Shown in pieces: positions 4,643 through 18,070 of a stretch of DNA of 64,000 nt. Below the pieces are notes generated by a model. That model saw only the letters and a program-made list of their open reading frames with translations, searched no databases and had not been told where the DNA came from. Position 1 is the first letter of the stretch. Each line of letters starts with the position of its first letter. Made by a program: the position numbers and the translations under genes. Source of the DNA: an uncultured delta proteobacterium (lineage in GTDB: Bacteria > Myxococcota_A > Polyangia > Fen-1088); the NCBI GenBank assembly GCA_963796685.1, contig CAWCMR010000013.1, forward strand, positions 192,001-256,000. The letters are read 5' to 3'.

Positions 4643-4702
4643 CTACCACGACAACGCGTCTGGCGTTTCGGCGCGGGCATCGGGGTGGTAGCGGACCTTC
4701 AC
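4643..4702 (-). pseudogene. N-terminal remnant of a ParE/RelE toxin
   Basis: GTGA-coupled 19-codon ORF VKVRYHPDARAETPDALSW-stop. Confidence 0.6.
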
Positions 4703-4917: not shown

Positions 4918-5417
4918 GGCAACTCTTCGTCGGCCAAACGAAGCACGGCCGCGCGTGTTTGCGCGTCCAGCCTGAATCGAAGAGCCGCGAGGCGATCGAG
5001 AACTGGGGCGACCGCGTCCAGAAAACCTTGCTGTTTGGCTTTCACCAAAACACCGGCTGTGCCGGTGAAGCGAACACCCAGATGGCCAGCGTAGCGGCGG
5101 GCGAGGCCGTCGTCGATGATCAGGATCGCGCCTGGCGTTTCTGCTGCCAGCGCAAGGGCTTCACGTTCTCCTGGCCCAAGGTCGCTCACTGCGGGCAAGA
5201 TGGCCATGCTCTGTGGGCGCACGATGCGCACCCAGGGAAAAGCGGTCGGGTCCGGAAGATCGAATCCCAGCGCGCGGCCAGCTGCCAGTTCCTGGACCAC
5301 GGCCGGTGGCACCAGGATCTCCTCGTACAGCTTCACCAGCAGATCGGTCAGGCCACACTGATGAAGGTACTGGAGCGGCGACGTGTTCGCGATCGTGACC
5401 GGACGCGGGTCAGGCAT
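4914..5417 (-). CDS. DUF3368 PIN-domain toxin
   Basis: IANTSPL, VPPAVVQEL, LGPGEREAL, IIDDGLAR, GTAGVLVKAKQQG. Confidence 0.9.
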   Translation of the reverse strand: MPDPRPVTIANTSPLQYLHQCGLTDLLVKLYEEILVPPAVVQELAAGRALGFDLPDPTAFPWVRIVRPQSMAILPAVSDLGPGEREALALAAETPGAILIIDDGLARRYAGHLGVRFTGTAGVLVKAKQQGFLDAVAPVLDRLAALRFRLDAQTRAAVLRLADEELP

Positions 5418-5658
5418 TCCGGACGTCTCGGGCAATTTCTTCGTCGGACAGCTTGAACACGGGAACGTCGTAGTCGGCCAGCTTGGTCATGAAGACTGGC
5501 TTGGGCAGGCCCGCTAGTTGAGCGGCGGCGCCAGCCGCGAGGCGCCCCATCTCGTATAGCTTCACAGCCGCGACCAACACGACCTCGCGCTCGGCGGCGT
5601 CCGCGCTCAGCTTCAACGCCAGCAGCGTTTCATCTGGGATGTTCAGGTGCCCGACCAT
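5410..5658 (-). CDS. UPF0175 family antitoxin
   Basis: AAVKLYEMGRLAAGAAAQLAGLPKPVF; overlaps the DUF3368 start. Confidence 0.88.
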   Translation of the reverse strand: MVGHLNIPDETLLALKLSADAAEREVVLVAAVKLYEMGRLAAGAAAQLAGLPKPVFMTKLADYDVPVFKLSDEEIARDVRNA

Positions 5659-5945
5659 GAAATGAACCTTACCACAGGGCTGATCCCTGAGCCGAGGAGG
5701 ATGCCATCGCGTCCCAAACACACCCCATCGGGTCGTTTGCCACGGCCGAAATTTTTGCCACGCTTTTGCCATGAAGTCCGACTTTGTGGTGGTCTTCTGC
5801 GGATAGACGCGGCTCGAAACGGAACGACCCCACCGAGCTGAACACCTGAAAACCACTCAGAAAACCAGCGCAAGGCCGCGTCGCGCCTGGGTCTTTTCTA
5901 AATGGCTTGCAGGTGTTTCAAGTCCCGATGGGTCACAAGGATTCG

Positions 5946-6035
5946 TCGGCCAGCTCTCGCCTGAGCGAACCTTCACCGGCTAGCCCGCGCGCGAAGACGT
6001 CTAGCGGCCTCGGCGTGGACTTCGTCAGCATCGAC
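5946..6035 (-). pseudogene. Internally deleted duplicate of 4383-4761 (3' ends of two antitoxin genes)
   Basis: 5946-5968 matches 4383-4405 at 22/23; 5969-6035 matches 4695-4761 at 63/67. Confidence 0.85.
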
Positions 6036-6160
6036 GCTGCCACGGCGCCGTTCAGGTCACGGATCAAGGGGGCCCAGTCCTTGGCGCTGTGCCGGGGACG
6101 CCCACCGAATCGCTAGAAACAAGGCGAAATACGCAGCGTTTCCGCGTCCTGGTCCCCGAA

Positions 6161-6182
6161 GTTACCCCCAAAGTTACCCCCA
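6161..6182 (+). repeat. Putative integrase arm-type sites, left end
   Basis: GTTACCCCCA at 6161 and 6173; same pair at 17848/17860. Confidence 0.8.
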
Positions 6183-6217
6183 GAGGCGCGGCCCTAGAGT
6201 GGTTCGATTCCCGTTCT

Positions 6218-6502
6218 TCACTCGTCGCCGCGACCGCGCTTGGGCACGAGGGTAGCAAGGTCGAAGCGCAAAGTTCTGCCGACACGCTGGCAAGGAATCG
6301 AGCCGTCCTTCACTCGGCGCCACAGCGTCGCGCGCGAGATGCCGAGGATCCTCATTGCATCTTCCGGCCTTCCAAGCGCCGACGGCGCAGCGGCGCGAAG
6401 CTGCTCGACGGCGATGATCAGCCGGTCCACCCGTACAGCCAGCGCGGCGACAGCTCGCCTTGTGGCGCGGACCTCGGCAAGCGTGGCCGTGGGACGGCTC
6501 AC
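6218..6502 (-). CDS. Excisionase-like helix-turn-helix protein
   Basis: EDAMRILGISRATLWRRVKDGSIPCQRVGRTLRF; GTGA-coupled; next to att. Confidence 0.8.
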   Translation of the reverse strand: MSRPTATLAEVRATRRAVAALAVRVDRLIIAVEQLRAAAPSALGRPEDAMRILGISRATLWRRVKDGSIPCQRVGRTLRFDLATLVPKRGRGDE

Positions 6503-7077
6503 GGAAAGAGGACACCCCGGTGGACATCGCGGACCCATTCGGCGGCCGCTCTAGGTGCTTCGTCGCGAAACTCGCGTGTTCCAAGCCCCCAGAGCAAGTC
6601 GATGCTCCGAAGGTAGGTCAAAACGCGTTCGTCCTCGTCGCTGCTACCAAGTATGCACTGGTGTTCGCCACCGATGTGCCTGTCAAAGCTGCCCAACTCG
6701 ACCGGCCAAGAATCGCCGTCGATGGACTTGCTGAATTCCCCAAGACGTCGTTGGTAGTCAACGATATCGGATGCGAAGTAGAACCTTGCCGCGACCCTAA
6801 CGGTCAATGTGCCTTTGTGTTCACCGATGAACTGAACCGGCGAAAGCAAGCCCGCCATGTACAGCTTCTCGATTACTTCGAACACTCGGACGTCGTGGTC
6901 CGAGTCCCACAAGACCGCGAGCGTGTGCACATGGGGAAGTTCCAGCCTCTCCCGCATCACGTCCAGCCATTCGGCACAGCGAACGATGCTGTAGTGGGTG
7001 TCCCACCCCAGGCCGACCGCCTCGGGCTGGTCGTAGATTGTCGAAAGGAGCGTGGAATACTGACGTGTTTCGCGCAT
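6499..7077 (-). CDS. Hypothetical cargo protein (192 aa)
   Basis: GGAGG RBS before ATG 7077; globular-looking composition; no recognised family. Confidence 0.7.
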   Translation of the reverse strand: MRETRQYSTLLSTIYDQPEAVGLGWDTHYSIVRCAEWLDVMRERLELPHVHTLAVLWDSDHDVRVFEVIEKLYMAGLLSPVQFIGEHKGTLTVRVAARFYFASDIVDYQRRLGEFSKSIDGDSWPVELGSFDRHIGGEHQCILGSSDEDERVLTYLRSIDLLWGLGTREFRDEAPRAAAEWVRDVHRGVLFP

Positions 7078-7358
7078 TGGTTTCCTCCGGTTTCGTAGGA
7101 AGTCGTGGGTTCCCCCACTGCGCCGACGCTTTCGGCATCGACGCGACTTGGAGCAGGATAGCATCGTGTCCGGTCGCCCGTCGAATGTATCGGCGAGCTC
7201 GGCCGGGGTTGCGCGGTCCAACCATCGGCCAACCACGCCGAAACGGGGTGGCCCACGGTTCGTCATGATCTGCGGGTGACGCCAGCGGATGGCAGCGGGG
7301 TCACTGATCACGTTTTGGAGATTGGGGAGATCGTGGATCTACTCGGGCCGGAGAACGC

Positions 7359-7859
7359 TCACCGCGAGATCAGAGCTTGGGTTCTTGCCTTTTCTGCGCG
7401 CTCTTTGCGTCGGCTTGAAGTGCCGGTGATGAATGTTATGACTATTCCCGCAACGCCCGTGCCGCCTATCGCTGCACCCGCCGCATCATGCCCATTTAGG
7501 ACCGCATACGTTCCACAGGCGATCATGGCCAAGGTGAGTACGAATCCGCAGACAACGCCAGCGGTTGCGCGAAAGTTCTCACCGCCGAGCGCAGTCGTCT
7601 CCATGGCCATCCTGTGCTCACCCTGCCTATTCGCCATGTCGACAATTTTTGCCGCGAGGCCTGGAACTACCTTGTCATATCCAGCAAGGACGTCTGGATG
7701 GGGGATAGGGCCGGAGAAGCTCGTTTGCGTGTGCGAAAGTGATACTGCCGCAGCGGCGGCGTTCCCGTTGCCTTGCAGAGCGATTGGGGATTGCCTAGCG
7801 ATCTGATGGTGACGGCCCATGGGTAGCCGACGGCGCTTTCTGCTTTTCCTCTTCCCCAT
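7359..7859 (-). CDS. DUF2335 family membrane protein
   Basis: FSGPIPHPDVLAGYDKVVPGLAAKIVDMA..HR followed by two hydrophobic helices. Confidence 0.85.
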   Translation of the reverse strand: MGKRKSRKRRRLPMGRHHQIARQSPIALQGNGNAAAAAVSLSHTQTSFSGPIPHPDVLAGYDKVVPGLAAKIVDMANRQGEHRMAMETTALGGENFRATAGVVCGFVLTLAMIACGTYAVLNGHDAAGAAIGGTGVAGIVITFITGTSSRRKERAEKARTQALISR

Positions 7860-8049
7860 GCACCGCATCTATCGCATTACACAAGTCTTGTCCAACTGCG
7901 CACCAGTCCGACGCCAACGCACGAGCGTCCGCTGTAGGGCCATCCGGCGAACGATTAAATTCGGTGAGCGTTCCACCCAAATCAAGAATCCTGGCCATTC
8001 CTTCAAAGAAGGATGGCCGCGCAAAGAGAAGGTCACTCATCTGAGTCAT
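7795..8049 (-). CDS. Small hypothetical protein, partner of DUF2335 gene
   Basis: PSFFEGMARILDLGG..DARALASDWCAVGQDL; overlaps DUF2335 ORF. Confidence 0.7.
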   Translation of the reverse strand: MTQMSDLLFARPSFFEGMARILDLGGTLTEFNRSPDGPTADARALASDWCAVGQDLCNAIDAVHGEEEKQKAPSATHGPSPSDR

Positions 8050-8260
8050 TCGTACAGATCCCATTTTACACTATGATCACCAGGATCAACTCTTCCGATT
8101 GGATGGCTCAAAACGTCTCTCGGTTCACGTGTGAATGCACTTCCTAGCACATCATCGCTGGAATCAAGAGAACCTTGAACATTAGCTGCAAAGCGCGTCA
8201 TCCACCTTACCACCCCTGCACCGTCCCTTTCGCCACTTTGGCCACGCCCCGCCACGCCCT

Positions 8261-8781
8261 TCACCCCTTCGTCCGGCTCGGCGACGTTGCCCACGGTTGA
8301 TCAACGATTTCGGCCGCCGGCTCTCGAGCAGTCTTCAGGGCCTCCGCTGTACATTGGAACGTCCTACGTACGAAAGCCCGATCGCCGCCTGCACAACCGG
8401 CAACGGCGCGCCGCCGGGAAACTGATCGGCGATATCCAGGGCGCAGCTCTTGTCCGCGGGCACTTCGGCCGGTTCGCGGTCGGGAAAGTTCAGCTTGATC
8501 GATCCTCGCGGGCTCACGTCGAGGTAGTTGTTGAATCGACAAGAAACCCACGGGCACGGCCTGGGGCCGTCTATGCAGTCACCGCGGGTCTTGGGCCGCT
8601 CCACGTCGCTGGGGTATTCCACCACCTCGCCAAACCATCGGTCGCGCAAGGCCCGCTGGGAATCCGGCGCTGCGGGGTGTTGCTGGTGGTAGGCAGCCAT
8701 CCCGGCTTGACCATGCCGCGTGACCACGCCGATTCCATCGCGCCACGATTCGAGCTGCCGAAGGTTTATCGATTTCCGCAC
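8261..8781 (-). CDS. Cys-rich protein with C-terminal sigma70 region-4-like HTH; probable frameshift near 8365
   Basis: RPKTRGDC..GPRPCPWVSC..YLDV..GSIKLNFP..CALDIAD; last helix (RTFQCTAEALK) lies in another frame. Confidence 0.65.
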
Positions 8782-8787
8782 GAGGCC

Positions 8788-9081
8788 TCACGCGGTCGGC
8801 GCTTCGAGTAGTGCCACCAACCTGGGTGGGAGCCACGCGGGCACGCAGTCGAGATGGTCCAGGACAGATCGCAGCCGATTGAGCACGCGATTGACTTGCA
8901 CGTGCGATGGCTTCCCGGCTGCCACAAAAGCGGCTAGGTTTGCATCGAGTGAGCCTTGTGTGCGTCCAAGCGTCTCGATTGCCCAACAGTCGAACGCCAG
9001 CACGGCCAGCGTGAGGTTGCCCCGCACGTCCAGCAGCACGGGGGATTCCTCGCCGCGAAGGTCTTGCTCGGCCGCGGTCAC
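8788..9081 (-). CDS. Hypothetical protein
   Basis: 97 aa, GTGA-coupled within the minus-strand gene string. Confidence 0.55.
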   Translation of the reverse strand: MTAAEQDLRGEESPVLLDVRGNLTLAVLAFDCWAIETLGRTQGSLDANLAAFVAAGKPSHVQVNRVLNRLRSVLDHLDCVPAWLPPRLVALLEAPTA

Positions 9082-9440
9082 GTTCCAGCCTCGGTTGAGA
9101 TCAGCTTGACCGCGGACACCACGGCGCGGGCAAACGTCCGGGCATCCTTCCCGCCCAAAGACCAGCAGATGTCGGTGCTACTGCGGACTGGCCACCATCG
9201 ACCGGCCGTGTCCTGATGCCACCGACGAATCAGAATCCTAGCTGGCCGCCCAGCGGTAGGTGGTTGGCTGGTGATTCGCAACTCGCTGCCGTTCTTGATT
9301 GCGATCGCTCCGTGGAGCCGGTGGGCCGCCTCCGGGCCGCGGTCGGTTGCTGGGCGCGGGCGTGCCGGCGTGGGCGCTGGCGTCTCGGCTTCGCCAAAGC
9401 CATGAAAGGCGAGGCGGGCGGATGTGTTGGGCGAGTTCAT
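9078..9440 (-). CDS. Hypothetical protein with PC4-like ssDNA-binding pattern
   Basis: ATGA-coupled; ELRIT..ILIRRWHQDTAGRWWP. Confidence 0.55.
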   Translation of the reverse strand: MNSPNTSARLAFHGFGEAETPAPTPARPRPATDRGPEAAHRLHGAIAIKNGSELRITSQPPTAGRPARILIRRWHQDTAGRWWPVRSSTDICWSLGGKDARTFARAVVSAVKLISTEAGT

Positions 9441-10033
9441 AGGCCCTTCGCCTCGCGGGCCAAGGACGCCTGCGCCTCCTCCCCGTAGATCGAGCCCAGT
9501 TCCGGATCCCCGAGAAGCAGGTGCAGCGCATCGTCGATGAAGCCTTCGATGTGATTCACGTCGAGATCGGATAGGTCGCGTTTGCGGGCGATGACTTTTG
9601 CCCAAACGAGTGACTCCCGCGCCGAGCGCAACCAGCGCCCGAAACTCTCAAGCTCTGCGTTCAGCCGGCGGGATTTCTTGGCTCTGGCGATGTCGCCCAG
9701 CACCTCGCGATGCCAGGCTAGACACTTGTTGGCCTCGGCGATGAGCGATGCCCGATCCGTGCGGCTGAGTTCGCCGAGTTCGGCCGCTACCGCCGCCGAA
9801 TGCCGCTCGTATTCCGTCTCGGGCGCCGGCGCGCCCCCATCTGGCGGACACCATTTTCCCGACGGGATCCACGAACGCATCGCGAGGTCAGGATTGATGA
9901 TGGTGATGTGGCTGCGCTTGCCGGGTTTCCCGGTGATGCGCACCGCTGCCGCGGGAATCAGGCCGTCGCGGACCGCGCGCGCAACGGTTCTCCGGGAGCA
10001 TCCGCGTAGCTTCGCAAATTCCTCTGTTGTCAT
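9437..10033 (-). CDS. Terminase small subunit-like protein (Nu1-type winged HTH)
   Basis: AAGGAG RBS; MTTEEFAKLRGCSRRTVARAVRDGLI..INPDLAMRSW then helical C-terminus. Confidence 0.65.
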   Translation of the reverse strand: MTTEEFAKLRGCSRRTVARAVRDGLIPAAAVRITGKPGKRSHITIINPDLAMRSWIPSGKWCPPDGGAPAPETEYERHSAAVAAELGELSRTDRASLIAEANKCLAWHREVLGDIARAKKSRRLNAELESFGRWLRSARESLVWAKVIARKRDLSDLDVNHIEGFIDDALHLLLGDPELGSIYGEEAQASLAREAKGL

Positions 10034-10050
10034 AGTGTGTTTCTCCTTAC

Positions 10051-10146
10051 GTGAGACAAGATGGGACATTCTTTTTCGGTGTTGTGCAGACACGTGGCGG
10101 GGCTCCTAGGCGCCGCGTCGTCCAAAACGGCCCAAAGGAGGTACCC
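10051..10146 (-). other. Candidate cos packaging site
   Basis: Minus strand GGGTACCT + 23 nt ending ACG + CGGCGCCTAGGA; TGRGACA repeats at 10052 and 10062; directly upstream of terS-like gene. Confidence 0.4.
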
Positions 10147-10159
10147 CCGTCCGGGCCCG

Positions 10160-10384
10160 TCATTGCCGCTTGCCGAGCCTTCGATCGATGCTCCAGCAGA
10201 GCCACGCCGACCTCACCACCTCCACGCCACACTTGGCACTCAGCCCCACGCCAACCAGGGCAAGCGCCGCCAACCTTGCGGCGGCGGACGCCATCGCCCA
10301 CAGTGCCACCGCCAGGCGCTTCAGCGCAGCCACCAGACCGCCGCGCTTCCCCTTGGCGACAGGGGCGGGCGCCTCACTACTCAT
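10160..10384 (-). CDS. Small basic/hydrophobic hypothetical protein
   Basis: 74 aa, overlaps upstream stop; long Ala/Leu/Val stretch. Confidence 0.5.
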   Translation of the reverse strand: MSSEAPAPVAKGKRGGLVAALKRLAVALWAMASAAARLAALALVGVGLSAKCGVEVVRSAWLCWSIDRRLGKRQ

Positions 10385-10814
10385 CCCTGGCCTTCGCTGT
10401 GCACGCGTGCGCTTCCGCCAACGCCTGTTCATCGAAGGCCTGCATCCTCGCGATGAAGGCATCCTCCTCGCTCCTGTTGTCGATGGGAGTGGGCCGGGCC
10501 TTGGCCATGACCGCTCGAAACTCGGCGTCGGGCCCGACCGCCGCCGCCGCCTTCGACGTGCCGGCAAGCAGCTCGGCCGCGCTCTCGATGGTCATGCCCG
10601 GCATGGCCGCCAGCCTGATGGCCAAGGGTCGCCGTCCCACTGCCTCCGCGTGCCCAACGATGCCTAGGATGCGTTCGCGCTCGACGGTGGCGGCCTCGGC
10701 TCGCGCCTTCGCCTTCGCGCTTTCCCGCGCCTCTGTGAGAGCCTCAGCCCTTGCCTCTGCCTGGATCTGCGCGACCACGTCGGGATACTCGGCCCGCAAC
10801 TGTTCGAGCGTCAC
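10377..10814 (-). CDS. Stand-alone Nu3-like capsid scaffold protein (145 aa)
   Basis: GGAGGT RBS; TLEQLRAEYPDVVAQIQAEA..ERERILGI..EAVGR..LAAMPGMTIESAAELLA resembles the scaffold tail of S49/ClpP head proteases. Confidence 0.65.
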   Translation of the reverse strand: MTLEQLRAEYPDVVAQIQAEARAEALTEARESAKAKARAEAATVERERILGIVGHAEAVGRRPLAIRLAAMPGMTIESAAELLAGTSKAAAAVGPDAEFRAVMAKARPTPIDNRSEEDAFIARMQAFDEQALAEAHACTAKARDE

Positions 10815-11017
10815 AATGCCACCTCCGTGGCCGTCGTGGTAAGCAGCTCGGCCGCAACCTCGACGGTCATTTCCGGCATGGCAGCGAGTCGGATAGCGGC
10901 TGCGCGCCACCCCTTGGCTGCGGGATGCGAGACGATCGCGAGGATGCGTTCACGCTCGGCCGTCGCCGCTCTCTCGTAGTTGCGCTCGAAGATCATTTGC
11001 CGCAGAGACGGGGTCAC
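10811..11017 (-). CDS. Short paralog of the Nu3-like scaffold core (68 aa)
   Basis: ERERILAIVSHPAAKGWRAAAIRLAAMPEMTVEVAAELL; DNA-level similarity to 10567-10690. Confidence 0.7.
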   Translation of the reverse strand: MTPSLRQMIFERNYERAATAERERILAIVSHPAAKGWRAAAIRLAAMPEMTVEVAAELLTTTATEVAL

Positions 11018-11370
11018 GACGCCACCACGCTGTCGTAGGACTTCATCCGCCGCAAAAAGGCCTCGGTTTCGGGATCGTCATCCTGGGCCGTGCCGGTCGG
11101 CGTTTCGCCTGCATCGAGTCTGCGCATGCGTTCGAGAAAAGCCGACTCCTCGGCCGCCTCGCTGGTTGCCGGCATCGCACGCGCGACAGGTGCGCTCGGC
11201 GTGGTGATGCGTGCGCTTGCCGTGGGCGTGGACACCGTTGTGGGCGCGGTGGCCGCGCATTCAGCGCTGCAAAAGCCCGACGTCCGCACTCCGAATCGGC
11301 CGCACGTGCATCGCGTTTGCGCGCGTTCCACGACGGCGGCCAGGGTCTCTTCGCCTTGCGTGTTCATCAC
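11014..11370 (-). CDS. Cys-motif protein with two copies of the scaffold C-terminal motif
   Basis: CTC..CSAEC, Thr/Ala linker, ESAFLERMRRLD and TEAFLRRMKSYD (cf. EDAFIARMQAFD in 10377-10814). Confidence 0.65.
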   Translation of the reverse strand: MMNTQGEETLAAVVERAQTRCTCGRFGVRTSGFCSAECAATAPTTVSTPTASARITTPSAPVARAMPATSEAAEESAFLERMRRLDAGETPTGTAQDDDPETEAFLRRMKSYDSVVAS

Positions 11371-11921
11371 GCACCCGCCTTGCGCGAGGACTTCGCCGGC
11401 TGCTGTGCTGCCAGCGCCGCTTCGAGAGCGGCCACTCGCTCGGCCAGCTTCGCCGGGTTCAGCTCGGCGGGGAGGCATTCAACACAGCACAACTCGCCCC
11501 GCGCGTTGAATCCCACAGCCGGGCGCCCAGCTTTGTAGACAGTGTCCGGATGCCTGACGCAAAACATCGGATCGATAGGAAGCTCGGCTTCCCGCTCGTG
11601 CCGGTCGCGTATCTTTGCCAGCTCCGCGTCGATTTCTGGCCGCCTTCGCGCGGACTCCGCTCGGCGCAAATCTTCCTCCGCTCGCCGAACGCACATCGTG
11701 CACCGCCGCTCCCCCACCGTTCCGTCGGCGGCGGTCACTTGGTGGGTTACGTCGCTCGGCAGATGACAGCGATCGCAGGTGTTCGGCATCTTTTCGAGGG
11801 GTATCGGAGGGCCATCGGTTGGCCCGGCCTCGGATGCCCCCCTTTCGGTGATCGGTGGTTGCAGATAGTTGGATTGCATGTCGGTTCCTTTCGGTTTGTT
11901 GGTTCGGTCGAAAATCCCCAC
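11367..11921 (-). CDS. Zinc-finger/coiled-coil hypothetical protein
   Basis: CDRC..CTMC, CVRH..CVEC; start uncertain. Confidence 0.6.
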   Translation of the reverse strand: MGIFDRTNKPKGTDMQSNYLQPPITERGASEAGPTDGPPIPLEKMPNTCDRCHLPSDVTHQVTAADGTVGERRCTMCVRRAEEDLRRAESARRRPEIDAELAKIRDRHEREAELPIDPMFCVRHPDTVYKAGRPAVGFNARGELCCVECLPAELNPAKLAERVAALEAALAAQQPAKSSRKAGA

Positions 11922-12036
11922 CGCCTAGCCTGTGCATCCGCCTGAAAGCAGAAGAGCGGTTGCATCCGGGCGACGATTCCCGACCGGGCGCATGGTCCCG
12001 GCAAGCGAAGTGGTGGGGTAAACCTTGAGCGGGAGA

Positions 12037-12225
12037 TCATCGGGCTGGCTCCCCTTGCGGCTGCACCAACTCGTGCTGGCGGGGCGTTTCCTGCGTCGAT
12101 GGCGTGCTGGTGCGAGCAATCGCGCGCCAACAGCGTGAGCACAGCAGTTTTCGAGCAACCGCTACGAAGTGCATCTCGGGCGTGGTCAGGTGGCACACGT
12201 CGCATGCATCGCGAGTCGCGGTCAT
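12037..12225 (-). CDS. Small zinc-ribbon protein
   Basis: CDVC..CSRC, 62 aa. Confidence 0.55.
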   Translation of the reverse strand: MTATRDACDVCHLTTPEMHFVAVARKLLCSRCWRAIARTSTPSTQETPRQHELVQPQGEPAR

Positions 12226-12629
12226 GGTGTGGCCTCACGCAGGCACTTGCGACAAACCCTGCCGGAGGTCAGGCCAGGAAGAACGGTTTCGGCTTTGGCG
12301 TCGGTGCCTCCGCAGTCGAGGCACAGCCGTTCGCTTTTCGCGTGGTCCGCCGCGGCCAGTGCCTTGAGCACCGCGAGTTCCCAGGCTCGCAACCGGATCT
12401 CGAGTTCGGCCAGGTCGCCCACACCACGCTGGCAGCGACTAGCCTCTCGACCACACGCAGCCATCGCGCGGGCCACGGCGGGGAGGCGCTCTACCGTAGG
12501 CCACCGATCGTCAAGATCGGGATGCTCCCCGGCTAGGCGGGCCCATGATTCCGCCCAGAGCGCCGCGACGACGTCAGGGGTGCCGGTGCCCAGGGCGTGA
12601 GTGGTGACCAAAGTGCAGGCGGCGGTCAT
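12222..12629 (-). CDS. Hypothetical protein with C-terminal zinc ribbon
   Basis: CLDC..CRKC; ATGA overlap at its start. Confidence 0.6.
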   Translation of the reverse strand: MTAACTLVTTHALGTGTPDVVAALWAESWARLAGEHPDLDDRWPTVERLPAVARAMAACGREASRCQRGVGDLAELEIRLRAWELAVLKALAAADHAKSERLCLDCGGTDAKAETVLPGLTSGRVCRKCLREATP

Positions 12630-12805
12630 TGCAACCCCGCTGGCTTGGGCACCATGAAGATCGGCGGGCGGCCATCTTCGCCAGGACGAAGCCCACGAAG
12701 GTCAACGAGTCGCCCGCGCCAGTCGTAGCCCCAACCGATGGGCGCCATGGGCGTGGCCGTGGTGTCGGTCGTGGGCGCGGCCGCGGTGAACAGCGGGGTC
12801 GTCAT
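12626..12805 (-). CDS. 59-aa hypothetical protein (below ORF-track cutoff)
   Basis: MTTPLFTAAAP..PAGLQ; ATGA overlaps at both ends. Confidence 0.55.
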   Translation of the reverse strand: MTTPLFTAAAPTTDTTATPMAPIGWGYDWRGRLVDLRGLRPGEDGRPPIFMVPKPAGLQ

Positions 12806-14148
12806 CGATCAGACTCCGGATCAGTGCCATCCGTTGCCGACAACCACGTGGTCAGCTCGGGGGCCCATCTGCACCTCGCCGCCCCTGTCCGTCCCTCGCG
12901 GTTTTTCGCCACGATGATCCGATCCCCATCGGCGCCATGGGTAAGAAACAACACAATGTCGGACTCCTGCTCGAAGGATCCCGTCTCGCGTAAGTCGGAC
13001 AGCATCGGGTCACCACCGCGCTTTTCAATCTCGCGCGAGAGCATCGCCACAAGGAGCACCACACACCCAAGCTCCTTGGCCAAGGTCTTCATGGCGACGG
13101 GCACCTTTGCCGCCTCTTGCTCGCGGGTGTCGCCCCTCTCGCGTCCCACTTGCACCCGTTGTGCGTAGTCGAGCACGATGAGCGCGCGCTTGTCGTCTTC
13201 CTTGCCACTGCGGAGAAATCGCGGGGCCACATGGCGGGCGTGCCACCGCCGGGCCTCGCCGGTGATCTGACCGAGCCGCACGGCCCGGTCGTTCACCCAC
13301 AGCAACGACGAATCGAACCGACCGGATGAGGCTCCAATCTTGCCCCATTCCGCTTTGTCCACACTCCCGACCTTGAGCTTGTGCGAGTTGATACCGGCGT
13401 CGCCGGAAAGCCAGCGCCGACCAAGTCGCTTGAGCATCATTTCAACCGAGAAAAACGCGGTCGGTACTCCGTGCATCCCACAGTACGCAGCGACGTTGCC
13501 CACGAATGCCGACTTGCCGACACCGGGACGAGCGGAGACGGTCACAAGATCGCCGGGCTCGAATCCTTCTGCGACATGGTCAAGCGTCGGAATGCCGGCG
13601 AAGACCCGCGGAACCAACTCGCCCCGCTGCTGTTTCTCGACATCGTCAGCAGCCTCGCGGATTGCCGTAGATACGTGGACCATGCCGCAGTCGCGCGAGA
13701 GATTTTCAAGCTCGGCCGTGCCGTCGCGCATGGCCTGGATCTGCTCTTCCCAGGGTTGGCCACCGTAGGCGAGCGCCAGCGTGTTGGTGCAGGTCTCGAT
13801 CAGTTTTCTACTGGCCGCCAGCTCCCGGACAATCTGCGCGTGGTGGCGCACCTGCTGCGGGATGGCCGCATCGCTCGCGCAAGCCATCGCCCACTCGTGC
13901 CAGCTCGGCGCGAAGTGCGGCTCGGCACCGGCCGCCTTGATGGCGCTGCTGAGTGAGATGGGATCGGTCGGAAGACCCTTGGAAACGGCGGCACTGGCGG
14001 CAGCCCAGGCCTCGCGATGGCACGGCACAAAGAACTCGTCCGGGCGTAGGCCGTCCGATTCCACGATCGCCGCATCGCCGTAGACCAGCTCGGATCCGAT
14101 GACGGCCCGCTCGGCCTCGACGTTGTGTGGTGGCGTCCGGTCGGTCAT
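12802..14148 (-). CDS. dnaB: DnaB-family replicative helicase (element-encoded)
   Basis: PPHNVEAERAVIG, Walker A ARPGVGKS, VLDYAQ, LSDLRETGSFEQESD, IVAKNREG. Confidence 0.93.
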   Translation of the reverse strand: MTDRTPPHNVEAERAVIGSELVYGDAAIVESDGLRPDEFFVPCHREAWAAASAAVSKGLPTDPISLSSAIKAAGAEPHFAPSWHEWAMACASDAAIPQQVRHHAQIVRELAASRKLIETCTNTLALAYGGQPWEEQIQAMRDGTAELENLSRDCGMVHVSTAIREAADDVEKQQRGELVPRVFAGIPTLDHVAEGFEPGDLVTVSARPGVGKSAFVGNVAAYCGMHGVPTAFFSVEMMLKRLGRRWLSGDAGINSHKLKVGSVDKAEWGKIGASSGRFDSSLLWVNDRAVRLGQITGEARRWHARHVAPRFLRSGKEDDKRALIVLDYAQRVQVGRERGDTREQEAAKVPVAMKTLAKELGCVVLLVAMLSREIEKRGGDPMLSDLRETGSFEQESDIVLFLTHGADGDRIIVAKNREGRTGAARCRWAPELTTWLSATDGTDPESDR

Positions 14149-14957
14149 GTGCCTACCTCGCCGAGTCCGGGCAGGTCTGGCCACGTGTATGGCGCCGGCT
14201 GGCCGGGCCTGGCTTGCGGGCGCGCAGCGGCCGTGCGCTCGTCTGTCCATCGCTGCTGATGCAGGTAGCTCGCCAGGTAGGGCACGTGCGCGGGATATTC
14301 GCGATCCGTCGCCTGCCAGTGCGGAACCTGCCAGGCTAGGGCCGAGGTCACGGCATCGGCTAGTGCTGCCTCGCCGCCGGCATAGTCGCGCGCCTGTCGC
14401 GTCCAGCTCACGGCGGCTTTGGCTTTCGCGTCTCGCCGGGGATAGATAGCCCAGATGCGGGCAAATGCCTCTGACACCTCAGCTCGACGAGCGCGCGCAC
14501 GCCCAGGAGCGGCAGCGGATGGGCATGTATCCTGATTTGGGGAAGGGGATCCGGATCGGGAAGGGGAACGGGAACGGGACGCTGCCACTGTCGCGCTATT
14601 CGACTGTCCATTAGACGCGCTACTAGCGCCGCTATTGGACGCTGCCCATTCTCGCTTGCGCTTCCGCTCGGCCTCGATGTGGGCCCGGCTCGGCTGGTAC
14701 TCGAGGTAGTCGTGGATCTGGTAGCCGCCCTCGACCATCTCCCACAAGCCGATGCGCACCAGCTCGGCCGCAGTGCCGGAGGCGTCGACTGTCCGCGCGT
14801 AGGCCGCGACCACCGGCAGATCGGCAGTGACGATGACGCCATCCGATTCGGCTTGCGCGGCGTAGGCCAGGCCCGCGAAGTACATCAGGCGGGCGGCATC
14901 GCTGCACCGGAACTTGCGATGCAGGAAGATCCTGTCGTCGATTTTGACCCAGCTCAC
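14145..14957 (-). CDS. Phage-type replication initiator
   Basis: SWVKIDD..H.KF N-terminus, YQIHDYLEYQP, Ser/Pro linker, FARIWAIYPR..YLHQQRWTDE; coupled to dnaB. Confidence 0.8.
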   Translation of the reverse strand: MSWVKIDDRIFLHRKFRCSDAARLMYFAGLAYAAQAESDGVIVTADLPVVAAYARTVDASGTAAELVRIGLWEMVEGGYQIHDYLEYQPSRAHIEAERKRKREWAASNSGASSASNGQSNSATVAASRSRSPSRSGSPSPNQDTCPSAAAPGRARARRAEVSEAFARIWAIYPRRDAKAKAAVSWTRQARDYAGGEAALADAVTSALAWQVPHWQATDREYPAHVPYLASYLHQQRWTDERTAAARPQARPGQPAPYTWPDLPGLGEVGT

Positions 14958-15232
14958 GGCCCGATTACCTCGTCGGCCAGGCGCGCGGCCTCGAGCACGT
15001 CGGCGTCGGTGACGGCGGGTCGCGCCCCCCTCGCTGCGTCGGCGATGCGCTCGCGGATCCAGTTTTCGATCTGGTCGCTCGGCCACGCCACACACCTGGC
15101 ACCCAGCTTGATCGGGGCCGGGAACGTGCCAGCCTGGATCGCGGCGTAGATGGCAGTCCTGCGCAGTCCCACGCGTGCGATCACGCCTGGCAATCTCAGC
15201 AGGCAGATCGGAGCGGGCGGTGCGGCGGTCAT
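14954..15232 (-). CDS. alpA: AlpA family regulator
   Basis: LLRLPGVIARVGLRRTAIY..GTFPAPIKLGARCVAWPSDQIENWI. Confidence 0.92.
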   Translation of the reverse strand: MTAAPPAPICLLRLPGVIARVGLRRTAIYAAIQAGTFPAPIKLGARCVAWPSDQIENWIRERIADAARGARPAVTDADVLEAARLADEVIGP

Positions 15233-15450
15233 CGCTGCACCGGAGCGAGGTCTGCGAGCTTTTGCGCCGCGAGCGCCAGGGTGCCCGCTCGCACGCCGAG
15301 CGACCCCCGGATCCTGGTGAGTGACGCCTCGGACACCCCGAGTAGTTTGGCGGTGCGGACAGTCCCTTCTCGCTCGACGAGCTCGCGCACCGCCCGGACA
15401 AATAGCGGGCCAGGTTGGACGAGGCCGCCCGAAAGAAAATGCTCATGCAT
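15229..15450 (-). CDS. Small HTH protein
   Basis: GTVRTAKLLGVSEASLTRI; ATGA-coupled to alpA. Confidence 0.6.
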   Translation of the reverse strand: MHEHFLSGGLVQPGPLFVRAVRELVEREGTVRTAKLLGVSEASLTRIRGSLGVRAGTLALAAQKLADLAPVQR

Positions 15451-15537
15451 ACAGAAAACTCTGGCATGGCACCTCAGCGGCCGACGCGACAATTGGACCA
15501 CCTGTCGGCGTCTATTGTCGCTGGCCCGTCGCTGTGA

Positions 15538-16467
15538 CTACTTGCCGGGCTTGCGCTGGCGTCGCTTCTTTTTGCTGGTCTTGCGCTGCCTGGTCTCTTC
15601 GGCGGCCTTGCGCTCGCGTTTCTTGGCCAGCGTCTTTTGGAGCGTGACGCTTGTGTAATCGTCGCCCACCAGGTCTAGGTTCTTGAGGGCCTTGACGACG
15701 TTGTCGTTATCCTTCTCGCCGCGCTTCTTCAACTCGGCCGCAACAAGCGTCGACACTGCATCGTGCGCGCCACGCTTCGGTGGCGAGGGGAATTTGAGCG
15801 ATAGCCCTTCATCCGTCCATGTGCTCGCGAAGCCGAGAAACTGGACGATCTCTTGAGACGGAAGCGTGCCCCATTGGAACGGGTGCAGATCGTCGATGGC
15901 TCGCGCGGCTTTGAGCGCATCTGTGAGGGCCGCCCTAAGTTTGCCGAGTTCGGCCTTGATCTTCAGTGAGTCCTGACCGTGCTTGAGGTTCGCATTGACC
16001 GAGTCGAGCGCCAGGGGAGCGCGCGCGGCTTTCGGATTCTTCAGGTACGAAGGATTGCACCCCGCATACGCCTGTTCGAGCTGGGGGAAGGTCCTTTTCT
16101 TGCCATCCTTGTCCTTGCCATTGAACCACTGATGGATTCGTTGACATAGTTCGAGCCCCTTCGATCTCTGGTCCGGTGCCTTGCTCGTCGGTGCCTTGCT
16201 CGGCTCCGGCAACGCAGGCAGTCCTTGCTTGGCCCGCATCTCCCGGATCACGTCCTCGGCCGACGGCTTCGGCTTTGCCGGCGTCGTGGCCTTCTTCCTG
16301 GCCAACGCCGCTTCGACCACCGCCCTACGCTGGGCCGGGTTCTTGGGCTGACCGACCTCCGGTGCCGTCGGCGCCGAGTTCGCCTCGCCTTGAGGCGCGC
16401 GCTTCGGTTGGCGGGGCTTCGGTTGGGTTGTCTTCGTCACGTGCATTTCCGTCTGCACTTCCTTCAA
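15538..16467 (-). CDS. Lys/Arg-rich hypothetical protein
   Basis: ~300 aa ORF downstream of integrase; no recognised family; start uncertain. Confidence 0.65.
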   Translation of the reverse strand: MKEVQTEMHVTKTTQPKPRQPKRAPQGEANSAPTAPEVGQPKNPAQRRAVVEAALARKKATTPAKPKPSAEDVIREMRAKQGLPALPEPSKAPTSKAPDQRSKGLELCQRIHQWFNGKDKDGKKRTFPQLEQAYAGCNPSYLKNPKAARAPLALDSVNANLKHGQDSLKIKAELGKLRAALTDALKAARAIDDLHPFQWGTLPSQEIVQFLGFASTWTDEGLSLKFPSPPKRGAHDAVSTLVAAELKKRGEKDNDNVVKALKNLDLVGDDYTSVTLQKTLAKKRERKAAEETRQRKTSKKKRRQRKPGK

Positions 16468-16545
16468 AAAAAGACCGTGGGCTGGGCCAGGGGAAATGCG
16501 GCCTGGCCCTCGACCGGGGGATCAGTCCCAATCGCTGCCCACGGT
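16466..16545 (-). terminator. Branched stem-loop followed by T7, after the integrase
   Basis: Outer ACCGTGGGC/GCCCACGGT, two inner hairpins, A7 at 16466-16472 on + strand. Confidence 0.6.
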
Positions 16546-16551
16546 GGAAAA

Positions 16552-17772
16552 CTAGATCGTCAACACTGCCCCCTCGGTCTGCTTGGGAGATTCACCGGCG
16601 GCGAGCTCGCCCAAGTAGTCCGCCCATCGTTGCATCATCGCCTTGCGCTCGGGAAGGAAGGCGGTGCGGTTGTAGGCGCGGCCGTTGGGATCGCGGACTG
16701 CGTGCGCAAGCTGCGCTTCGATCAGGTCCACGCGTTCGCCGAGGACCTCGTCAAGCAGGGTTCGGGCGGTCGCGCGGAACCCGTGGCCGCTCGCCGTGGC
16801 CTTGGCGATATCCAGGCGGCGAAGGGCGGCGTTGACCGCGGCGTCGGACATCGGCCGATCCCTGCTTCTCTGCGATGGGAACACGTAGGGGCACAAGCCA
16901 GTCAGTGGGTGCAGCTCGCGCAAGATGGCGACCGCCTGCTTGGCCAGGGGCACGATGTGCGGCGTCCCGGTCTTGCTGGCGGTGAAGCGCCACTCGGCCT
17001 TGGGAAGGTCGATGTCAGCCCACTTGGCCGCACGCAGTTCGCCGGGGCGGACGAAGAGCAGGGGGGCCAGCTTCAGCGCAGCGGCCACGATGGGCGTGCC
17101 CTCGTCGTACTTCCAGATCATGCGCAACAGGTCTGCCAGCTTCGCGGGCTCGGTTACCGCGGCCATGTGCTTGGCCTTCACCGGCGGCAAGGCGCCACGT
17201 AGGTCTGCCGTCGGGTCGCGTTCGGCGCGGGCGGTGGCGATGGCGTACCGGAAGATCTGCGAAAGGGCAATGCGCGTGCGGTGCGCGCTTTCTAGTCGCC
17301 CTCTGGCCTCGATACGTCGGAGCACGGCCAGCACTTCGGGGGGCGCGATCTGGCCGATGGGCCGCGACCCTATCCACGGGAATGCATCGTTCGTGAGCCT
17401 CGCGCGAACGCCGCGCGCATGGGACGGCACCCACGTACCTTCAAACCGCTTCAGCCACTCCTCGCCGACGGTTTGAAGGGTGTTGGCGCCTGCCTCCGCC
17501 GACGCAACCTTCGCTGCCTTCCGGTGCGCGCTGGGGTCGATACCGTCGCGAACCTGCTTGCGGGTTGCTTCCCGCTTCTCCCTGGCCTCGGCCAGCGTCG
17601 TCTCGGGATACGTGCCGAGCGATAGCAGCTTCTCTTTGCCGTCGAAGCGGTACTTGAGGCGCCACCACTTGCCGCCAGCCGGTGCAACCTCCAGATACAA
17701 CCCGCCGGTGTCGTAGAGGCGTGTCCTCTTTTCTGCCGGCTTGGCTTTCTTGCAGGCGGTGTCGGTCAGCAT
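16552..17772 (-). CDS. int: P4-like tyrosine integrase with N-terminal arm-binding domain
   Basis: LYDTGGLYLEV..KWWRLKYRF, VRPGE, HGFR, QLAH, RAYNR; adjacent to tRNA-Leu. Confidence 0.96.
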   Translation of the reverse strand: MLTDTACKKAKPAEKRTRLYDTGGLYLEVAPAGGKWWRLKYRFDGKEKLLSLGTYPETTLAEAREKREATRKQVRDGIDPSAHRKAAKVASAEAGANTLQTVGEEWLKRFEGTWVPSHARGVRARLTNDAFPWIGSRPIGQIAPPEVLAVLRRIEARGRLESAHRTRIALSQIFRYAIATARAERDPTADLRGALPPVKAKHMAAVTEPAKLADLLRMIWKYDEGTPIVAAALKLAPLLFVRPGELRAAKWADIDLPKAEWRFTASKTGTPHIVPLAKQAVAILRELHPLTGLCPYVFPSQRSRDRPMSDAAVNAALRRLDIAKATASGHGFRATARTLLDEVLGERVDLIEAQLAHAVRDPNGRAYNRTAFLPERKAMMQRWADYLGELAAGESPKQTEGAVLTI

Positions 17773-17819
17773 CTGGGGATCCTTTCGGCCCGGGAATCGA
17801 ACCCGCTAAGTTGGGGCTT

Positions 17820-17869
17820 TGGGGGTAACTGGTTTTGGAGTCGGCGAGTTACCCCCAAGGTTACCCCCA
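17820..17869. repeat. Putative integrase arm-type sites, right end
   Basis: TGGGGGTAAC 17820-17829 (inverted), GTTACCCCCA at 17848 and 17860. Confidence 0.8.
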
Positions 17870-17985
17870 CACGTTCACGGCTGTCAACAGACGCAGCCGG
17901 ACTCTAGCGGAGCCAAAGCGGCACTAAATAGCTGATTTCGCTAGATGCCGTGGACTCTCGCGGACAGTGACGGATTACCGCAGAG

Positions 17986-18070
17986 TGCCGGGGACGGGAC
18001 TCGAACCCGTACGCCGCTTTCGCGACAGCGGATTTTAAGTCCGCGGCGTCTACCATTTCGCCACCCCGGC
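17986..18070 (-). tRNA. tRNA-Leu (TAA); integration target
   Basis: GCCGGGG acceptor, GCGGA-CTTAAAA-TCCGC, long variable arm, GTTCGAGTC; CCA not encoded. Confidence 0.96.

What the first reader, a model, noticed from the sequence alone, without database searches (positions are those of the whole stretch)
10377..11370. Three coupled genes built from free-standing capsid-scaffold (Nu3-like) motifs: candidate new capsid-hijacking system
Seen: the 145-aa gene has core ERERILGI..EAVGR..LAAMPGMTIESAAELLA and tail EDAFIARMQAFD. The 68-aa gene is the core alone (DNA-level duplicate). The 118-aa gene has a Cys motif, a linker and two copies of the tail motif alone. So: one full protein, one core-only, one tail-only. 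Established (from memory): lambda Nu3/gpC contains ENSRIMGILNCEEAHGREEQARVLAETPGMTVKTARRILAA and is normally nested in the head protease gene between portal and capsid genes, none of which I see here. Satellites remodel capsids with SaPI CpmB, P4 Sid or PLE TcaP; I know of no Nu3-derived set. Inference: internal-scaffold mimics that shrink or poison helper procapsids to favour the 11.9 kb element.
Basis: partly seen in the sequence, partly recalled or inferred. Interest (0 to 1): 0.9.

Follow-up and report, generated by a model that had tools for sequence, protein, structure and literature searches.

The report
Free-standing lambda Nu3-like scaffold genes in satellite-like island
A small mobile island that has no capsid genes of its own carries a conserved set of coupled genes copied from the internal head scaffold of lambda-like phages, so it probably tampers with a helper phage's head assembly, although no helper phage or binding has been shown.

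Summary
The 145-aa gene (10377-10814) is a free-standing homologue of lambda Nu3: PHROG head-protease/scaffold families to E 4.8e-11, and hhalign against lambda Nu3 gives 96.7% probability. It is co-linear (48% identity) with the C-terminal scaffold part of S49 protease genes in lambda-type head modules, starting at their internal Met. The 68-aa gene is the core alone. The 117/118-aa gene is a Cys motif, a linker and two copies of the C-terminal "tail" motif.

They lie in an 11,896-bp island in tRNA-Leu carrying integrase, AlpA, replication initiator and DnaB, all on one strand, with no protease, portal or capsid gene. A second island (11,819 bp, different integrase and helicase, tRNA-Arg) in a congener carries the 184/118/145 cassette (dN/dS 0.31-0.49). 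A metagenome contig carries a Zn+tail gene, a core-only gene and a full scaffold gene in the same coupled order. In 77 of 80 viral contigs the domain is fused to the protease.

Best reading (about 0.5): a phage-satellite module that competes with a lambda-like helper's scaffold, analogous to SaPI CpmB/Rcm. No helper was found, binding is unshown, and the complex prediction gave no verdict. I rate it a new variant of a known kind.

The parts
6089..17996 (-). 11,896-bp integrated island; all genes on the minus strand
   Evidence: Exact 12-nt direct repeat GTGCCGGGGACG at 6089-6100 and 17985-17996, read. Synteny with congeners ends exactly at 17985. The left boundary rests on the 12-mer and the arm repeats only; no empty site was recovered.
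17985..18070 (-). tRNA-Leu(taa). Its 3' end is the right attachment core.
   Evidence: ARAGORN; sequence.
6160..6182 (.). Arm-type repeat AGTTACCCCCAAAGTTACCCCCA near the left end
   Evidence: Family D2. The partner copy at 17847-17869 is 96% identical.
17847..17869 (.). Arm-type repeat near the right end, upstream of the integrase gene
16552..17772 (-). Tyrosine integrase (406 aa)
   Evidence: Arm-DNA-bind_3 2.6e-28, Phage_int_M 1.6e-34, Phage_integrase 2.8e-11; phrog_1 2e-60.
14954..15232 (-). AlpA-family regulator/excisionase (92 aa)
   Evidence: PF05930 1.7e-12.
14145..14909 (-). Replication initiation protein (start codon uncertain)
   Evidence: phrog_9474 8e-20, phrog_270 5.5e-15.
12802..14250 (-). 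DnaB-type replicative helicase
   Evidence: DnaB_C 1.2e-50, DnaB 3.7e-13.
11367..11921 (-). 184-aa ORF, first gene of the cassette, with two CxxC...CxxC units. It is probably 170 aa starting at MQSNYLQPP.
   Evidence: 65% identical orthologue in the G402 island starts at the equivalent Met. dN/dS 0.38. Its C-terminus is also present in L098. No family hit.
11014..11370 (-). Tail-only protein of 117/118 aa: Cys motif (11257-11310), PAT-rich linker, and two tail motifs (11113-11142 and 11032-11061)
   Evidence: 86% identical orthologue in G402, dN/dS 0.31.
10811..11017 (-). Core-only protein of 68 aa (core 10826-10963)
   Evidence: phrog_17040 3.1e-5, phrog_53 1.6e-4, phrog_8399 5.7e-4. 65-aa counterpart in L098. 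Absent from the G402 island.
10377..10814 (-). Free-standing Nu3-type scaffold protein of 145 aa: N-terminal long helix, core (10551-10688), and tail helix (motif 10431-10460)
   Evidence: phrog_53 4.8e-11 at profile positions 321-422 of 583; phrog_8399 5.2e-7. hhalign against lambda Nu3 gives 96.7%, E 3.6e-10. 48% identity to residues 272-421 of the L017 protease-scaffold. AF2 pLDDT 92.6, all helical.
10160..10381 (-). 73-aa ORF overlapping the stop of the 145-aa gene; hydrophobic; reality uncertain
   Evidence: Weak match of its last 21 residues in L099. No family hit.
9437..10093 (-). 218-aa ORF (198 aa from the database start): N-terminal winged HTH plus a helical C-terminal part. It may be a small-terminase-like protein or a regulator.
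   Evidence: HTH_17 5.2e-6. phrog_57 'terminase small subunit' 1.8e-5, over residues 15-50 only. 56% identical neighbour of the cassette in L098. AF2 is confident only for residues 1-55.

Best explanation
The island is a phage-satellite-like element built like a Gram-negative PICI: integrase, AlpA, its own replication initiator and helicase, one transcription direction, 11.9 kb, and no virion genes. The translationally coupled cassette (184 aa, Zn+tails 118 aa, core-only 68 aa, Nu3-like 145 aa) derives from the internal head scaffold of lambda-type phages, whose head module is portal, S49 protease with a nested Nu3-type scaffold, gpD-like decoration protein and gpE-type capsid protein.

Inferred mechanism:
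- During infection by such a helper, the protease-less scaffold p145 co-assembles with the helper's capsid protein in place of, or mixed with, the helper's own scaffold.
- The core-only p68 caps or titrates scaffold-scaffold contacts, since it has neither the N-terminal helix nor the tail.
- p118 presents two copies of the scaffold's C-terminal helix on a flexible linker. It would occupy or bridge the sites where that helix docks, on the capsid protein or the portal.
- The net effect would be procapsids of altered (smaller) size or poisoned helper heads, favouring the 11.9-kb element.

Shown here: the homology, the anatomy, the island context, the conservation and the purifying selection.

Inferred only: any binding, any size change, and the existence of a helper.
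For: (1) Homology.
- PHROG head-maturation-protease and scaffold families match both p145 and p68.
- The family profile aligns to lambda Nu3 residues 105-179 at 96.7% probability, E 3.6e-10. BLASTP gives E 4e-8.

(2) Co-linearity with the nested scaffold.
- p145 residues 1-145 align at 48% identity to residues 272-421 of the 424-aa S49 protease-scaffold of viral contig L017.
- The L017 neighbours are a lambda-family portal, a gpD-like protein and a gpE capsid protein at 1.7e-60.
- The alignment starts at an internal Met preceded by GAGGA in L017 and AAGGAA in L018.
- The L017 protein ends with the same tail motif, SAYLGRMKALD.

(3) Contrast with phages.
- In 77 of 80 IMG/VR loci the match lies in an open frame of at least 370 aa. 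Two are cut by a contig end and one is 241 aa.
- 79 of 80 have the S49 part and 67 of 80 have a gpE-type capsid gene.
- In the island and its relatives the gene stands alone.

(4) Satellite-like context.
- att repeats, arm repeats, integrase, AlpA, replication initiator and DnaB.
- No terminator-like site on the coding strand within the island (weak evidence).

(5) Recurrence.
- The G402 island is 11,819 bp between perfect 43-nt repeats of tRNA-Arg. It has a different integrase and an AAA_25 helicase, but carries the 184/118/145 genes at 65/86/79% identity.
- L098 has the 184-aa C-terminus, a Zn+1-tail gene, a 65-aa core-only gene, a 187-aa scaffold gene and a p218 homologue, with overlapping starts and stops.
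- L099 has a 184-like gene, a Zn+tail gene and a Zn+core+tail fusion.

(6) Selection: dN/dS is 0.38, 0.31 and 0.49 for the three shared genes.

(7) Structure: p145 is predicted with high confidence as an elongated all-helical protein with a long N-terminal helix and a long C-terminal helix carrying the tail. Internal scaffolds are like this (recalled).

(8) Precedent: CpmB and Rcm of SaPIs are helical mimics of the helper scaffold that redirect capsid size (PMC12409344, abstract and Discussion).
Against: - No helper. There is no other p145 homologue, no PF05065 capsid and no gpE-type capsid in the own genome, which is 88.6% complete.
- gpE-type capsid was found in 0 of the 36 other genomes of the same family searched. 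It was found in only 1 of 61 genomes in all, and weakly.
- No tblastn match of p145 in 50,697 deposited phage records at E 1e-3.
- The cassette is rare: 2 of 61 relatives and 3 of 401 genomes sampled from the phylum. The two outside the genus are weak hits inside 540-592-aa frames.
- The core-only gene is missing from the G402 island, so it is dispensable for whatever the cassette does.
- L099 places a related cassette next to a gpD-like decoration gene and a tail-like gene fragment. This could be a phage context rather than a satellite context.
- Among the best 150 library hits, 83 are under 220 aa and of unknown context. Free-standing forms may therefore also be ordinary phage scaffold genes.
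- The tree of the domain is unresolved: 15 of 27 inner branches are open.
- No excision or circle junction was seen in the two runs laid. These were contigs with small shares, so this is not informative.
Confidence: 0.5

Rival explanations
1. Anti-phage interference without piracy. The island, or its host, uses scaffold decoys only to poison head assembly of invading lambda-like phages. This would be a defence function, and the island itself would not be packaged.
For: The same homology and anatomy apply as for the main reading. Core-only and tail-only fragments look like dominant-negative pieces. No cos or pac site and no confident small terminase was identified, because p218 matches terminase families only through its HTH. 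Satellite capsid remodellers are described as interference functions (PMC12409344, Discussion).
Against: Two islands with different integrases and replicons have nearly the same length, 11,896 and 11,819 bp. That fits a packaging constraint. The island has its own replication module, typical of satellites. No PADLOC defence family matched in the 9 island proteins scanned, apart from one HTH match.
Confidence: 0.17
2. Decayed prophage remnant. The three genes are left-over pieces of a broken protease-scaffold gene with no present function.
For: In viral contigs the domain is almost always part of a protease gene (77 of 80). Core-only and tail-only genes could in principle arise by fragmentation.
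Against: - No S49, portal, decoration or capsid remnant is in the island by Pfam, PHROG or tblastn.
- The genes are intact, have overlapping start and stop codons, and their start positions are conserved between loci.
- The cassette is shared by two islands with different integrases and helicases and by two metagenome contigs.
- dN/dS is 0.31-0.49.
- No lambda-type capsid gene was found in 37 genomes of the family, including the own genome.
- The Cys domain of p118 and the 184-aa gene have no counterpart in the phage protease genes.
Confidence: 0.08
3. Part of a genuine but unusual phage or capsid-forming element. The cassette would be the scaffold module of a virus whose other head genes lie elsewhere, or of a larger element of which the island is a deletion derivative.
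For: L099 has a gpD-like decoration gene, 65% identical to that of phage contig L017, directly upstream of the cassette. It also has a weak YqbQ-like tail gene fragment (E 0.0014) before that. Many short homologues are of unknown context.
Against: Both complete examples are bounded by att repeats at 11.8-11.9 kb and contain no capsid, portal, terminase large subunit or tail gene. L099 is only 2.3 kb long, so its context is open.
Confidence: 0.1
4. A function unrelated to capsids. The small helical core would be a DNA- or protein-binding module reused in regulation of the island, together with the several zinc-ribbon proteins.
For: The island encodes at least five CxxC...CxxC units. Pfam gives only a sub-threshold CggR_N DNA-binding hit on the core, E 0.18. 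No solved structure or fold match is available to constrain function.
Against: p145 matches the phage scaffold over its whole length, including the N-terminal helix and the tail, not just the core. Every annotated PHROG family hit is a head protease, scaffold or capsid assembly family.
Confidence: 0.1

Closest known systems
Lambda Nu3 (capsid assembly protein nested in the C-terminal third of the S49 protease gene C)
   Same: Homologous core domain: hhalign 96.7%, E 3.6e-10; BLASTP 35% identity over 89 columns. In closer lambda-type head modules (L017, L018) the similarity runs from the internal Met to the C-terminus, and in L017 it includes the tail motif.
   Different: Free-standing and not nested in a protease gene. 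No portal, gpD or gpE genes are nearby. It is accompanied by separate core-only and tail-only genes and by zinc-ribbon proteins. It lies in an integrative island rather than a phage.
SaPI CpmB and Rcm (satellite-encoded internal scaffold mimics that redirect capsid size)
   Same: Small helical proteins encoded by a satellite that resemble the helper's scaffold and are thought to compete with it at the capsid protein (PMC12409344, abstract and Discussion). p145 is predicted to be all-helical and shares its C-terminal helix motif with a phage scaffold.
   Different: A different protein family and helper type: Nu3/gpE lambda-like rather than 80alpha-like. Sequence relation to CpmB or Rcm was not tested here. 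There are three separate products rather than one. Function is untested and the host lineage is a high-GC Gram-negative-type genome.
Gram-negative PICIs such as EcCICFT073 (helper: lambda)
   Same: Integrase, alpA, own replicon, unidirectional transcription, about 12 kb, no virion genes (PMC6092414, section 'Features of PICI candidates').
   Different: EcCICFT073 was reported to be packaged in full-size capsids without size redirection (PMC6092414, passages in Interference and Discussion). I saw no Nu3-like gene described there, but its supplementary tables were not available.
P4 Sid and PLE TcaP (external scaffolds)
   Same: Satellite-encoded capsid size determinants.
   Different: Those act from the outside of the shell and are unrelated to the helper's internal scaffold (recalled, and the PMC10945586 abstract). 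The proteins here derive from the internal scaffold.

Membership tests
Lambda gpC/Nu3-type internal scaffold domain | Profile-level sequence match to the Nu3 core | tested here: met
   phrog_53 4.8e-11, phrog_8399 5.2e-7. hhalign against lambda Nu3 gives 96.7%, E 3.6e-10.
Lambda gpC/Nu3-type internal scaffold domain | Co-linear with the whole nested scaffold product, from the internal Met to the C-terminus, of a lambda-type protease gene | tested here: met
   p145 aligns to P0157 residues 272-421 at 48% identity. An internal Met with a Shine-Dalgarno-like sequence is present.
Lambda gpC/Nu3-type internal scaffold domain | Encoded within the S49 protease gene, between the portal and the decoration/capsid genes | tested here: not met
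   No S49, portal, gpD or gpE gene in the island. In viral contigs 77 of 80 matches are fused to the protease.
Lambda gpC/Nu3-type internal scaffold domain | Enters procapsids and is needed for their assembly | not testable with these tools
   Needs biochemistry or genetics.
S49 head maturation protease | Peptidase_S49 catalytic domain | tested here: not met
   No PF01343 hit in p145, p68 or p118. The PHROG match covers only profile positions 321-422 of 583.
PICI-type phage satellite (Gram-negative type) | Integrase at one end, specific att site, alpA, own replication module, unidirectional genes, about 10-15 kb, no virion or lysis genes | tested here: met
   A second island of the same size was found in G402.
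PICI-type phage satellite (Gram-negative type) | Induced by, and packaged by, a helper phage | not testable with these tools
   No helper was identified.
CpmB/Rcm scaffold mimics | Sequence relation to CpmB or Rcm | not tested
   No CpmB or Rcm sequence was compared. None of the named PHROG families hit is a Cpm family.
CpmB/Rcm scaffold mimics | C-terminal helix like that of the helper's scaffold, binding the capsid protein | tested here: inconclusive
   The tail motif is shared with the scaffold of phage contig L017, but that phage is not known to be the helper and binding is unshown.

The most novel reading that the evidence does not exclude
A 'split-scaffold' strategy. A satellite has taken the helper's Nu3-type internal scaffold and dissected it into separately encoded working parts. 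These are a protease-less full scaffold, a core-only cap, and a zinc-ribbon protein carrying two copies of the capsid-docking helix. Together they reprogram the shell size of lambda-type (gpE) capsids. This would be the first size-redirection system for lambda-like helpers and the first satellite family in this high-GC soil and peat lineage. The fused Zn+core+tail relatives would be evolutionary intermediates.
Probability: 0.3. Interest if true: 0.8.

Novelty: new variant of a known kind. Interest (0 to 1): 0.62.

Why it matters
Only a handful of capsid-remodelling mechanisms are known for phage satellites: Sid, CpmA/B, Ccm, Rcm and TcaP. For lambda-type helpers the one studied satellite showed no size redirection (PMC6092414, passages). 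This would be a Nu3-derived module.

The docking helix and the oligomerising core are supplied on separate polypeptides. That would give a natural dissection of how an internal scaffold works: which part binds the shell and which part sets curvature.

It would also extend satellite biology to an uncultured high-GC lineage, and it would offer a sequence signature (the tail motif plus the Cys domain) for finding more such islands.

Tried and rejected
- **Complex prediction.** I predicted a complex of the L017 gpE-type capsid protein (alignment A6) with residues 58-117 of the tail-only protein (alignment A4). The result was no verdict: median 0.53, but one control scored 0.56. It counts neither for nor against.
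- **Solved structures.** A sequence search against PDB chains with the family profile and with p218 gave nothing at a useful E-value. Foldseek of the p145 model against PDB gave no match with E <= 0.001.
- **p218.** The AF2 model has mean pLDDT 59.7 and is confident only for the N-terminal winged HTH. I ran no fold search on it, so terminase versus regulator stays open.
- **184-aa protein.** The protein atlas gave a best score of 0.81 with no family. PADLOC found nothing.
- **Wider locus searches.** Genome-contig scans with A1 and A4 found no relatives. An IMG/VR scan with A4 found none.
- **Domain tree.** The tree of 30 rows is unresolved. Free-standing and fused forms need 3 changes, against 9.5 for shuffled labels, and a single origin is neither shown nor excluded. 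Rows used were 17 free-standing proteins, 12 C-terminal parts of fusions and lambda Nu3. All other library hits were left out.
- **Sequencing runs.** No RNA holder was listed. Two DNA metagenome runs hold small shares, 0.07 and 0.06. Laid as contigs, one run has short pieces identical to several island parts, and the other has a 380-nt contig covering 11014-11178 with 5 differences. No joint matched the island ends. This is not evidence on mobility or expression.
- **My first S49 count** used a faulty filter and was replaced.
- **Literature.** Three full-text searches found no paper combining Nu3 with satellites in the rows listed. The terms were Nu3 / satellite / PICI; phage satellite / scaffolding protein / capsid size / Nu3; and VEIME / scaffold. 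This is not proof of absence.
- **Papers seen.** PMC6092414: passages and one section. PMC12409344: abstract and Discussion. PMC10085698 and PMC10690885: passages. PMC10945586: listing and abstract only. Supplementary tables were closed and may list island genes that I could not see.
Full report
**What is there**

On the minus strand, four genes are joined by overlapping stop and start codons (GTGA or equivalent). They are a 184-aa ORF (11367-11921), a 117/118-aa ORF (11014-11370), a 68-aa ORF (10811-11017) and a 145-aa ORF (10377-10814, with GGAGGTG before its GTG).

- The 145-aa protein has an N-terminal segment, a core (ERERILGIVGHAEAVGRRPLAIRLAAMPGMTIESAAELLAG) and a tail (DAFIARMQAFD).
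- The 68-aa protein is the core alone. It is 61% identical to the 145-aa core in protein. The DNA alignment has 76% mean column identity.
- The 118-aa protein has the Cys pattern C-x-C-x10-C-x3-C, a Pro/Ala/Thr linker and two tails.
- A pattern for the tail hits three times in all six frames of the 64-kb window, only in these genes. The pattern was derived from them, so this shows specificity only.

**Is it Nu3-like?**

Pfam finds nothing. PHROG places p145 in head-maturation-protease family 53 at E 4.8e-11. The match covers only profile positions 321-422 of 583, the part behind the protease. p145 also matches head-scaffolding and capsid-assembly families, and p68 hits the same families more weakly.

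I fetched lambda itself. The family profile aligns to Nu3 residues 105-179 with 96.7% probability, E 3.6e-10. BLASTP gives E 4e-8.

A profile search of 1.84 billion representatives gave 337 hits at E <= 1e-3. Of the best 150, 53 are at least 370 aa and match at their C-terminal part. 83 are under 220 aa and 14 lie between.

**Closest phage relatives**

An IMG/VR scan found 99 relatives and kept the best 80. The top two, L017 and L018, are lambda-type head modules. They carry a gpA terminase, a lambda-family portal, an S49 protease of 424/425 aa, a gpD-like protein and a gpE capsid protein at 1.7e-60 and 1.5e-59.

p145 aligns over its full length (48% identity) to residues 272-421 of the L017 protease. 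The alignment begins at an internal Met that is preceded by GAGGA in L017 and AAGGAA in L018. Lambda makes Nu3 in this way (recalled). The L017 protein ends with the same tail, SAYLGRMKALD.

Across the 80 viral loci:
- 77 have the match inside an open frame of at least 370 aa, 2 are cut by a contig end, and 1 is 241 aa.
- 79 have the S49 part and 67 have a gpE-type capsid gene.

So in viruses the domain is part of the protease gene, while here it stands alone.

**Context**

The genes lie in an 11,896-bp island. It is bounded by an exact 12-nt repeat, at 6089-6100 and at 17985-17996, the latter being the 3' end of tRNA-Leu(taa). Arm-type repeats lie just inside both ends. Synteny with congeners stops exactly at 17985. 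I did not recover an empty site for the left end.

All island genes are on one strand:
- integrase (Arm-DNA-bind_3, Phage_int_M)
- a 309-aa unknown
- AlpA
- a replication initiator (phrog_9474, 8e-20)
- DnaB
- several small Cys-rich ORFs
- the cassette
- a 73-aa hydrophobic ORF
- a 218-aa HTH_17 protein
- two unknowns conserved in G402
- a DUF2335 membrane protein
- a 270-aa unknown
- a second HTH_17 protein

There is no protease, portal, capsid, terminase large subunit, tail or lysis gene. This matches the published description of Gram-negative PICIs (PMC6092414, section 'Features of PICI candidates').

**Recurrence**

Among 61 relatives, only the own genome and one congener, G402, have the gene. 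In a 401-genome sample of the phylum, only two further weak hits appear, both inside long frames.

- **G402.** The island is 11,819 bp between perfect 43-nt repeats of tRNA-Arg. It has an unrelated integrase and an AAA_25 helicase instead of DnaB. It shares the 184-, 118- and 145-aa genes (65, 86 and 79% identity by tblastn), the 97- and 148-aa genes and the HTH gene. It lacks the 68-, 73- and 218-aa genes. Nei-Gojobori dN/dS for the three shared cassette genes is 0.38, 0.31 and 0.49.
- **L098 (2,089 bp).** This metagenome contig carries, in coupled order, the end of a 184-like gene, a Zn-ribbon protein with one tail, a 65-aa core-only gene, a 187-aa scaffold and a p218 homologue. The one-tail-only, one-core-only, one-full arrangement is therefore not peculiar to this window.
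- **L099 (2,317 bp).** This contig has a gpD-like decoration gene, 65% identical to that of L017, then a 184-like gene, a Zn+tail gene (frameshifted in this contig but intact as P0163 elsewhere) and a Zn-ribbon+core+tail fusion, P0017.

The Zn+tail family has only four clusters. They share a strongly conserved N-terminus and carry one or two tails.

**Structure**

AlphaFold2 on an 18-row alignment gives p145 a mean pLDDT of 92.6. It is all helical: a long helix at 11-53, two short helices in the core (62-69, 76-85), a helix at 95-106 and a long C-terminal helix at 113-144 that carries the tail. No solved relative exists by sequence or fold.

**Helper**

None was found.
- The own genome (88.6% complete) has no second homologue, no HK97-type capsid Pfam hit and no gpE-type capsid.
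- None of the 36 other genomes of its family searched has a gpE-type capsid.
- Deposited phage genomes give no tblastn hit.

**Interpretation**

Five facts fit a satellite module that interferes with the head assembly of a lambda-type helper, by analogy with the scaffold mimics CpmB and Rcm (PMC12409344):
- The scaffold gene corresponds exactly to the nested Nu3-type product.
- It sits in a virion-less, self-replicating, precisely bounded island.
- It is conserved under purifying selection in a second island with other integration and replication genes.
- Both islands have almost the same size.
- It is accompanied by separately encoded pieces of the same scaffold.

The assignment of roles is inference: p145 as substitute scaffold, p68 as cap, p118 as bivalent docking-helix protein. 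The same holds for the target of the tail, capsid protein or portal. The complex prediction gave no verdict (see Tried and rejected).

The decayed-prophage reading is disfavoured. A pure-defence reading and a 'part of a larger virus' reading (from L099) remain open.

**Novelty**

The principle is known, namely a satellite mimic of the helper's internal scaffold. I did not find three things described in the papers searched (supplements not seen):
- a Nu3/gpC origin
- the split into full, core-only and tail-only products with zinc-ribbon partners
- a lambda-type target

I therefore rate it a new variant of a known kind, with interest 0.62.

Noticed in passing
window 2687-5856: A cluster of toxin-antitoxin-like genes lies just outside the island's left end. 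It has an Xre/MbcA/ParS-type antitoxin with a RES-domain protein (3005-4362), two UPF0175 genes (4376-4627 and 5410-5856), a DUF3368 PIN-like protein (4914-5435) and an Unstab_antitox gene (4699-4917). A 72-nt direct repeat at 93% identity lies at 4690-4761 and 5964-6035, next to the att core.
   Followed up: partly
The genome search; L115: tRNA-Leu looks like an integration hot spot in the genus. Six congeners have a second partial copy (the first 53-56 nt of the query) 1-44 kb from the full gene. G404 has integrase-like sequence at the same site, aligning to window 17406-20233, but no p145 homologue.
   Followed up: partly
L099 1-945: A gpD-like head decoration gene (568-945), 65% identical to that of phage contig L017, sits directly upstream of a related cassette. 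Before it lie a tail-like gene fragment (YqbQ-like, E 0.0014) and a short tandem repeat that reads RQVRTWT four times. This could be a satellite with its own decoration protein, or a phage.
   Followed up: partly
P0016, P0017, P0019, P0024: These proteins form a well-supported clade (100/99). Three of the four (P0017, P0019, P0024) fuse an N-terminal CxxC...CxxC zinc ribbon directly to the scaffold core and tail. P0016 has no Cys motif and may lack its true N-terminus. This links the Cys domains of the island's small proteins functionally to the scaffold.
   Followed up: partly
P0021, P0023, P0028: Some relatives carry three tandem copies of the ~45-residue core. One of them sits behind an S49 protease. 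The core therefore behaves as an independent repeatable unit.
   Followed up: no
window 9437-10093: The 218-aa neighbour of the cassette has a winged HTH (HTH_17). The HTH matches small-terminase, excisionase and Cox-like PHROG families and PADLOC mad1. The protein has only one relative in the 5.8-billion-protein collection, the one in L098. A Nu1-like small terminase role is possible but unsupported.
   Followed up: partly
window 7359-7868 and 8335-9081: A DUF2335 membrane protein (phrog_3996, 9.7e-35) lies in the island. Two unknown genes of 148 and 97 aa are conserved in the G402 island at 50% and 38% identity.
   Followed up: no
Read laying: A soil metagenome run holds several short contigs identical to scattered parts of the island. 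A peat metagenome run holds a 380-nt contig covering the tail half of the 118-aa gene with 5 differences in 165 nt.
   Followed up: no
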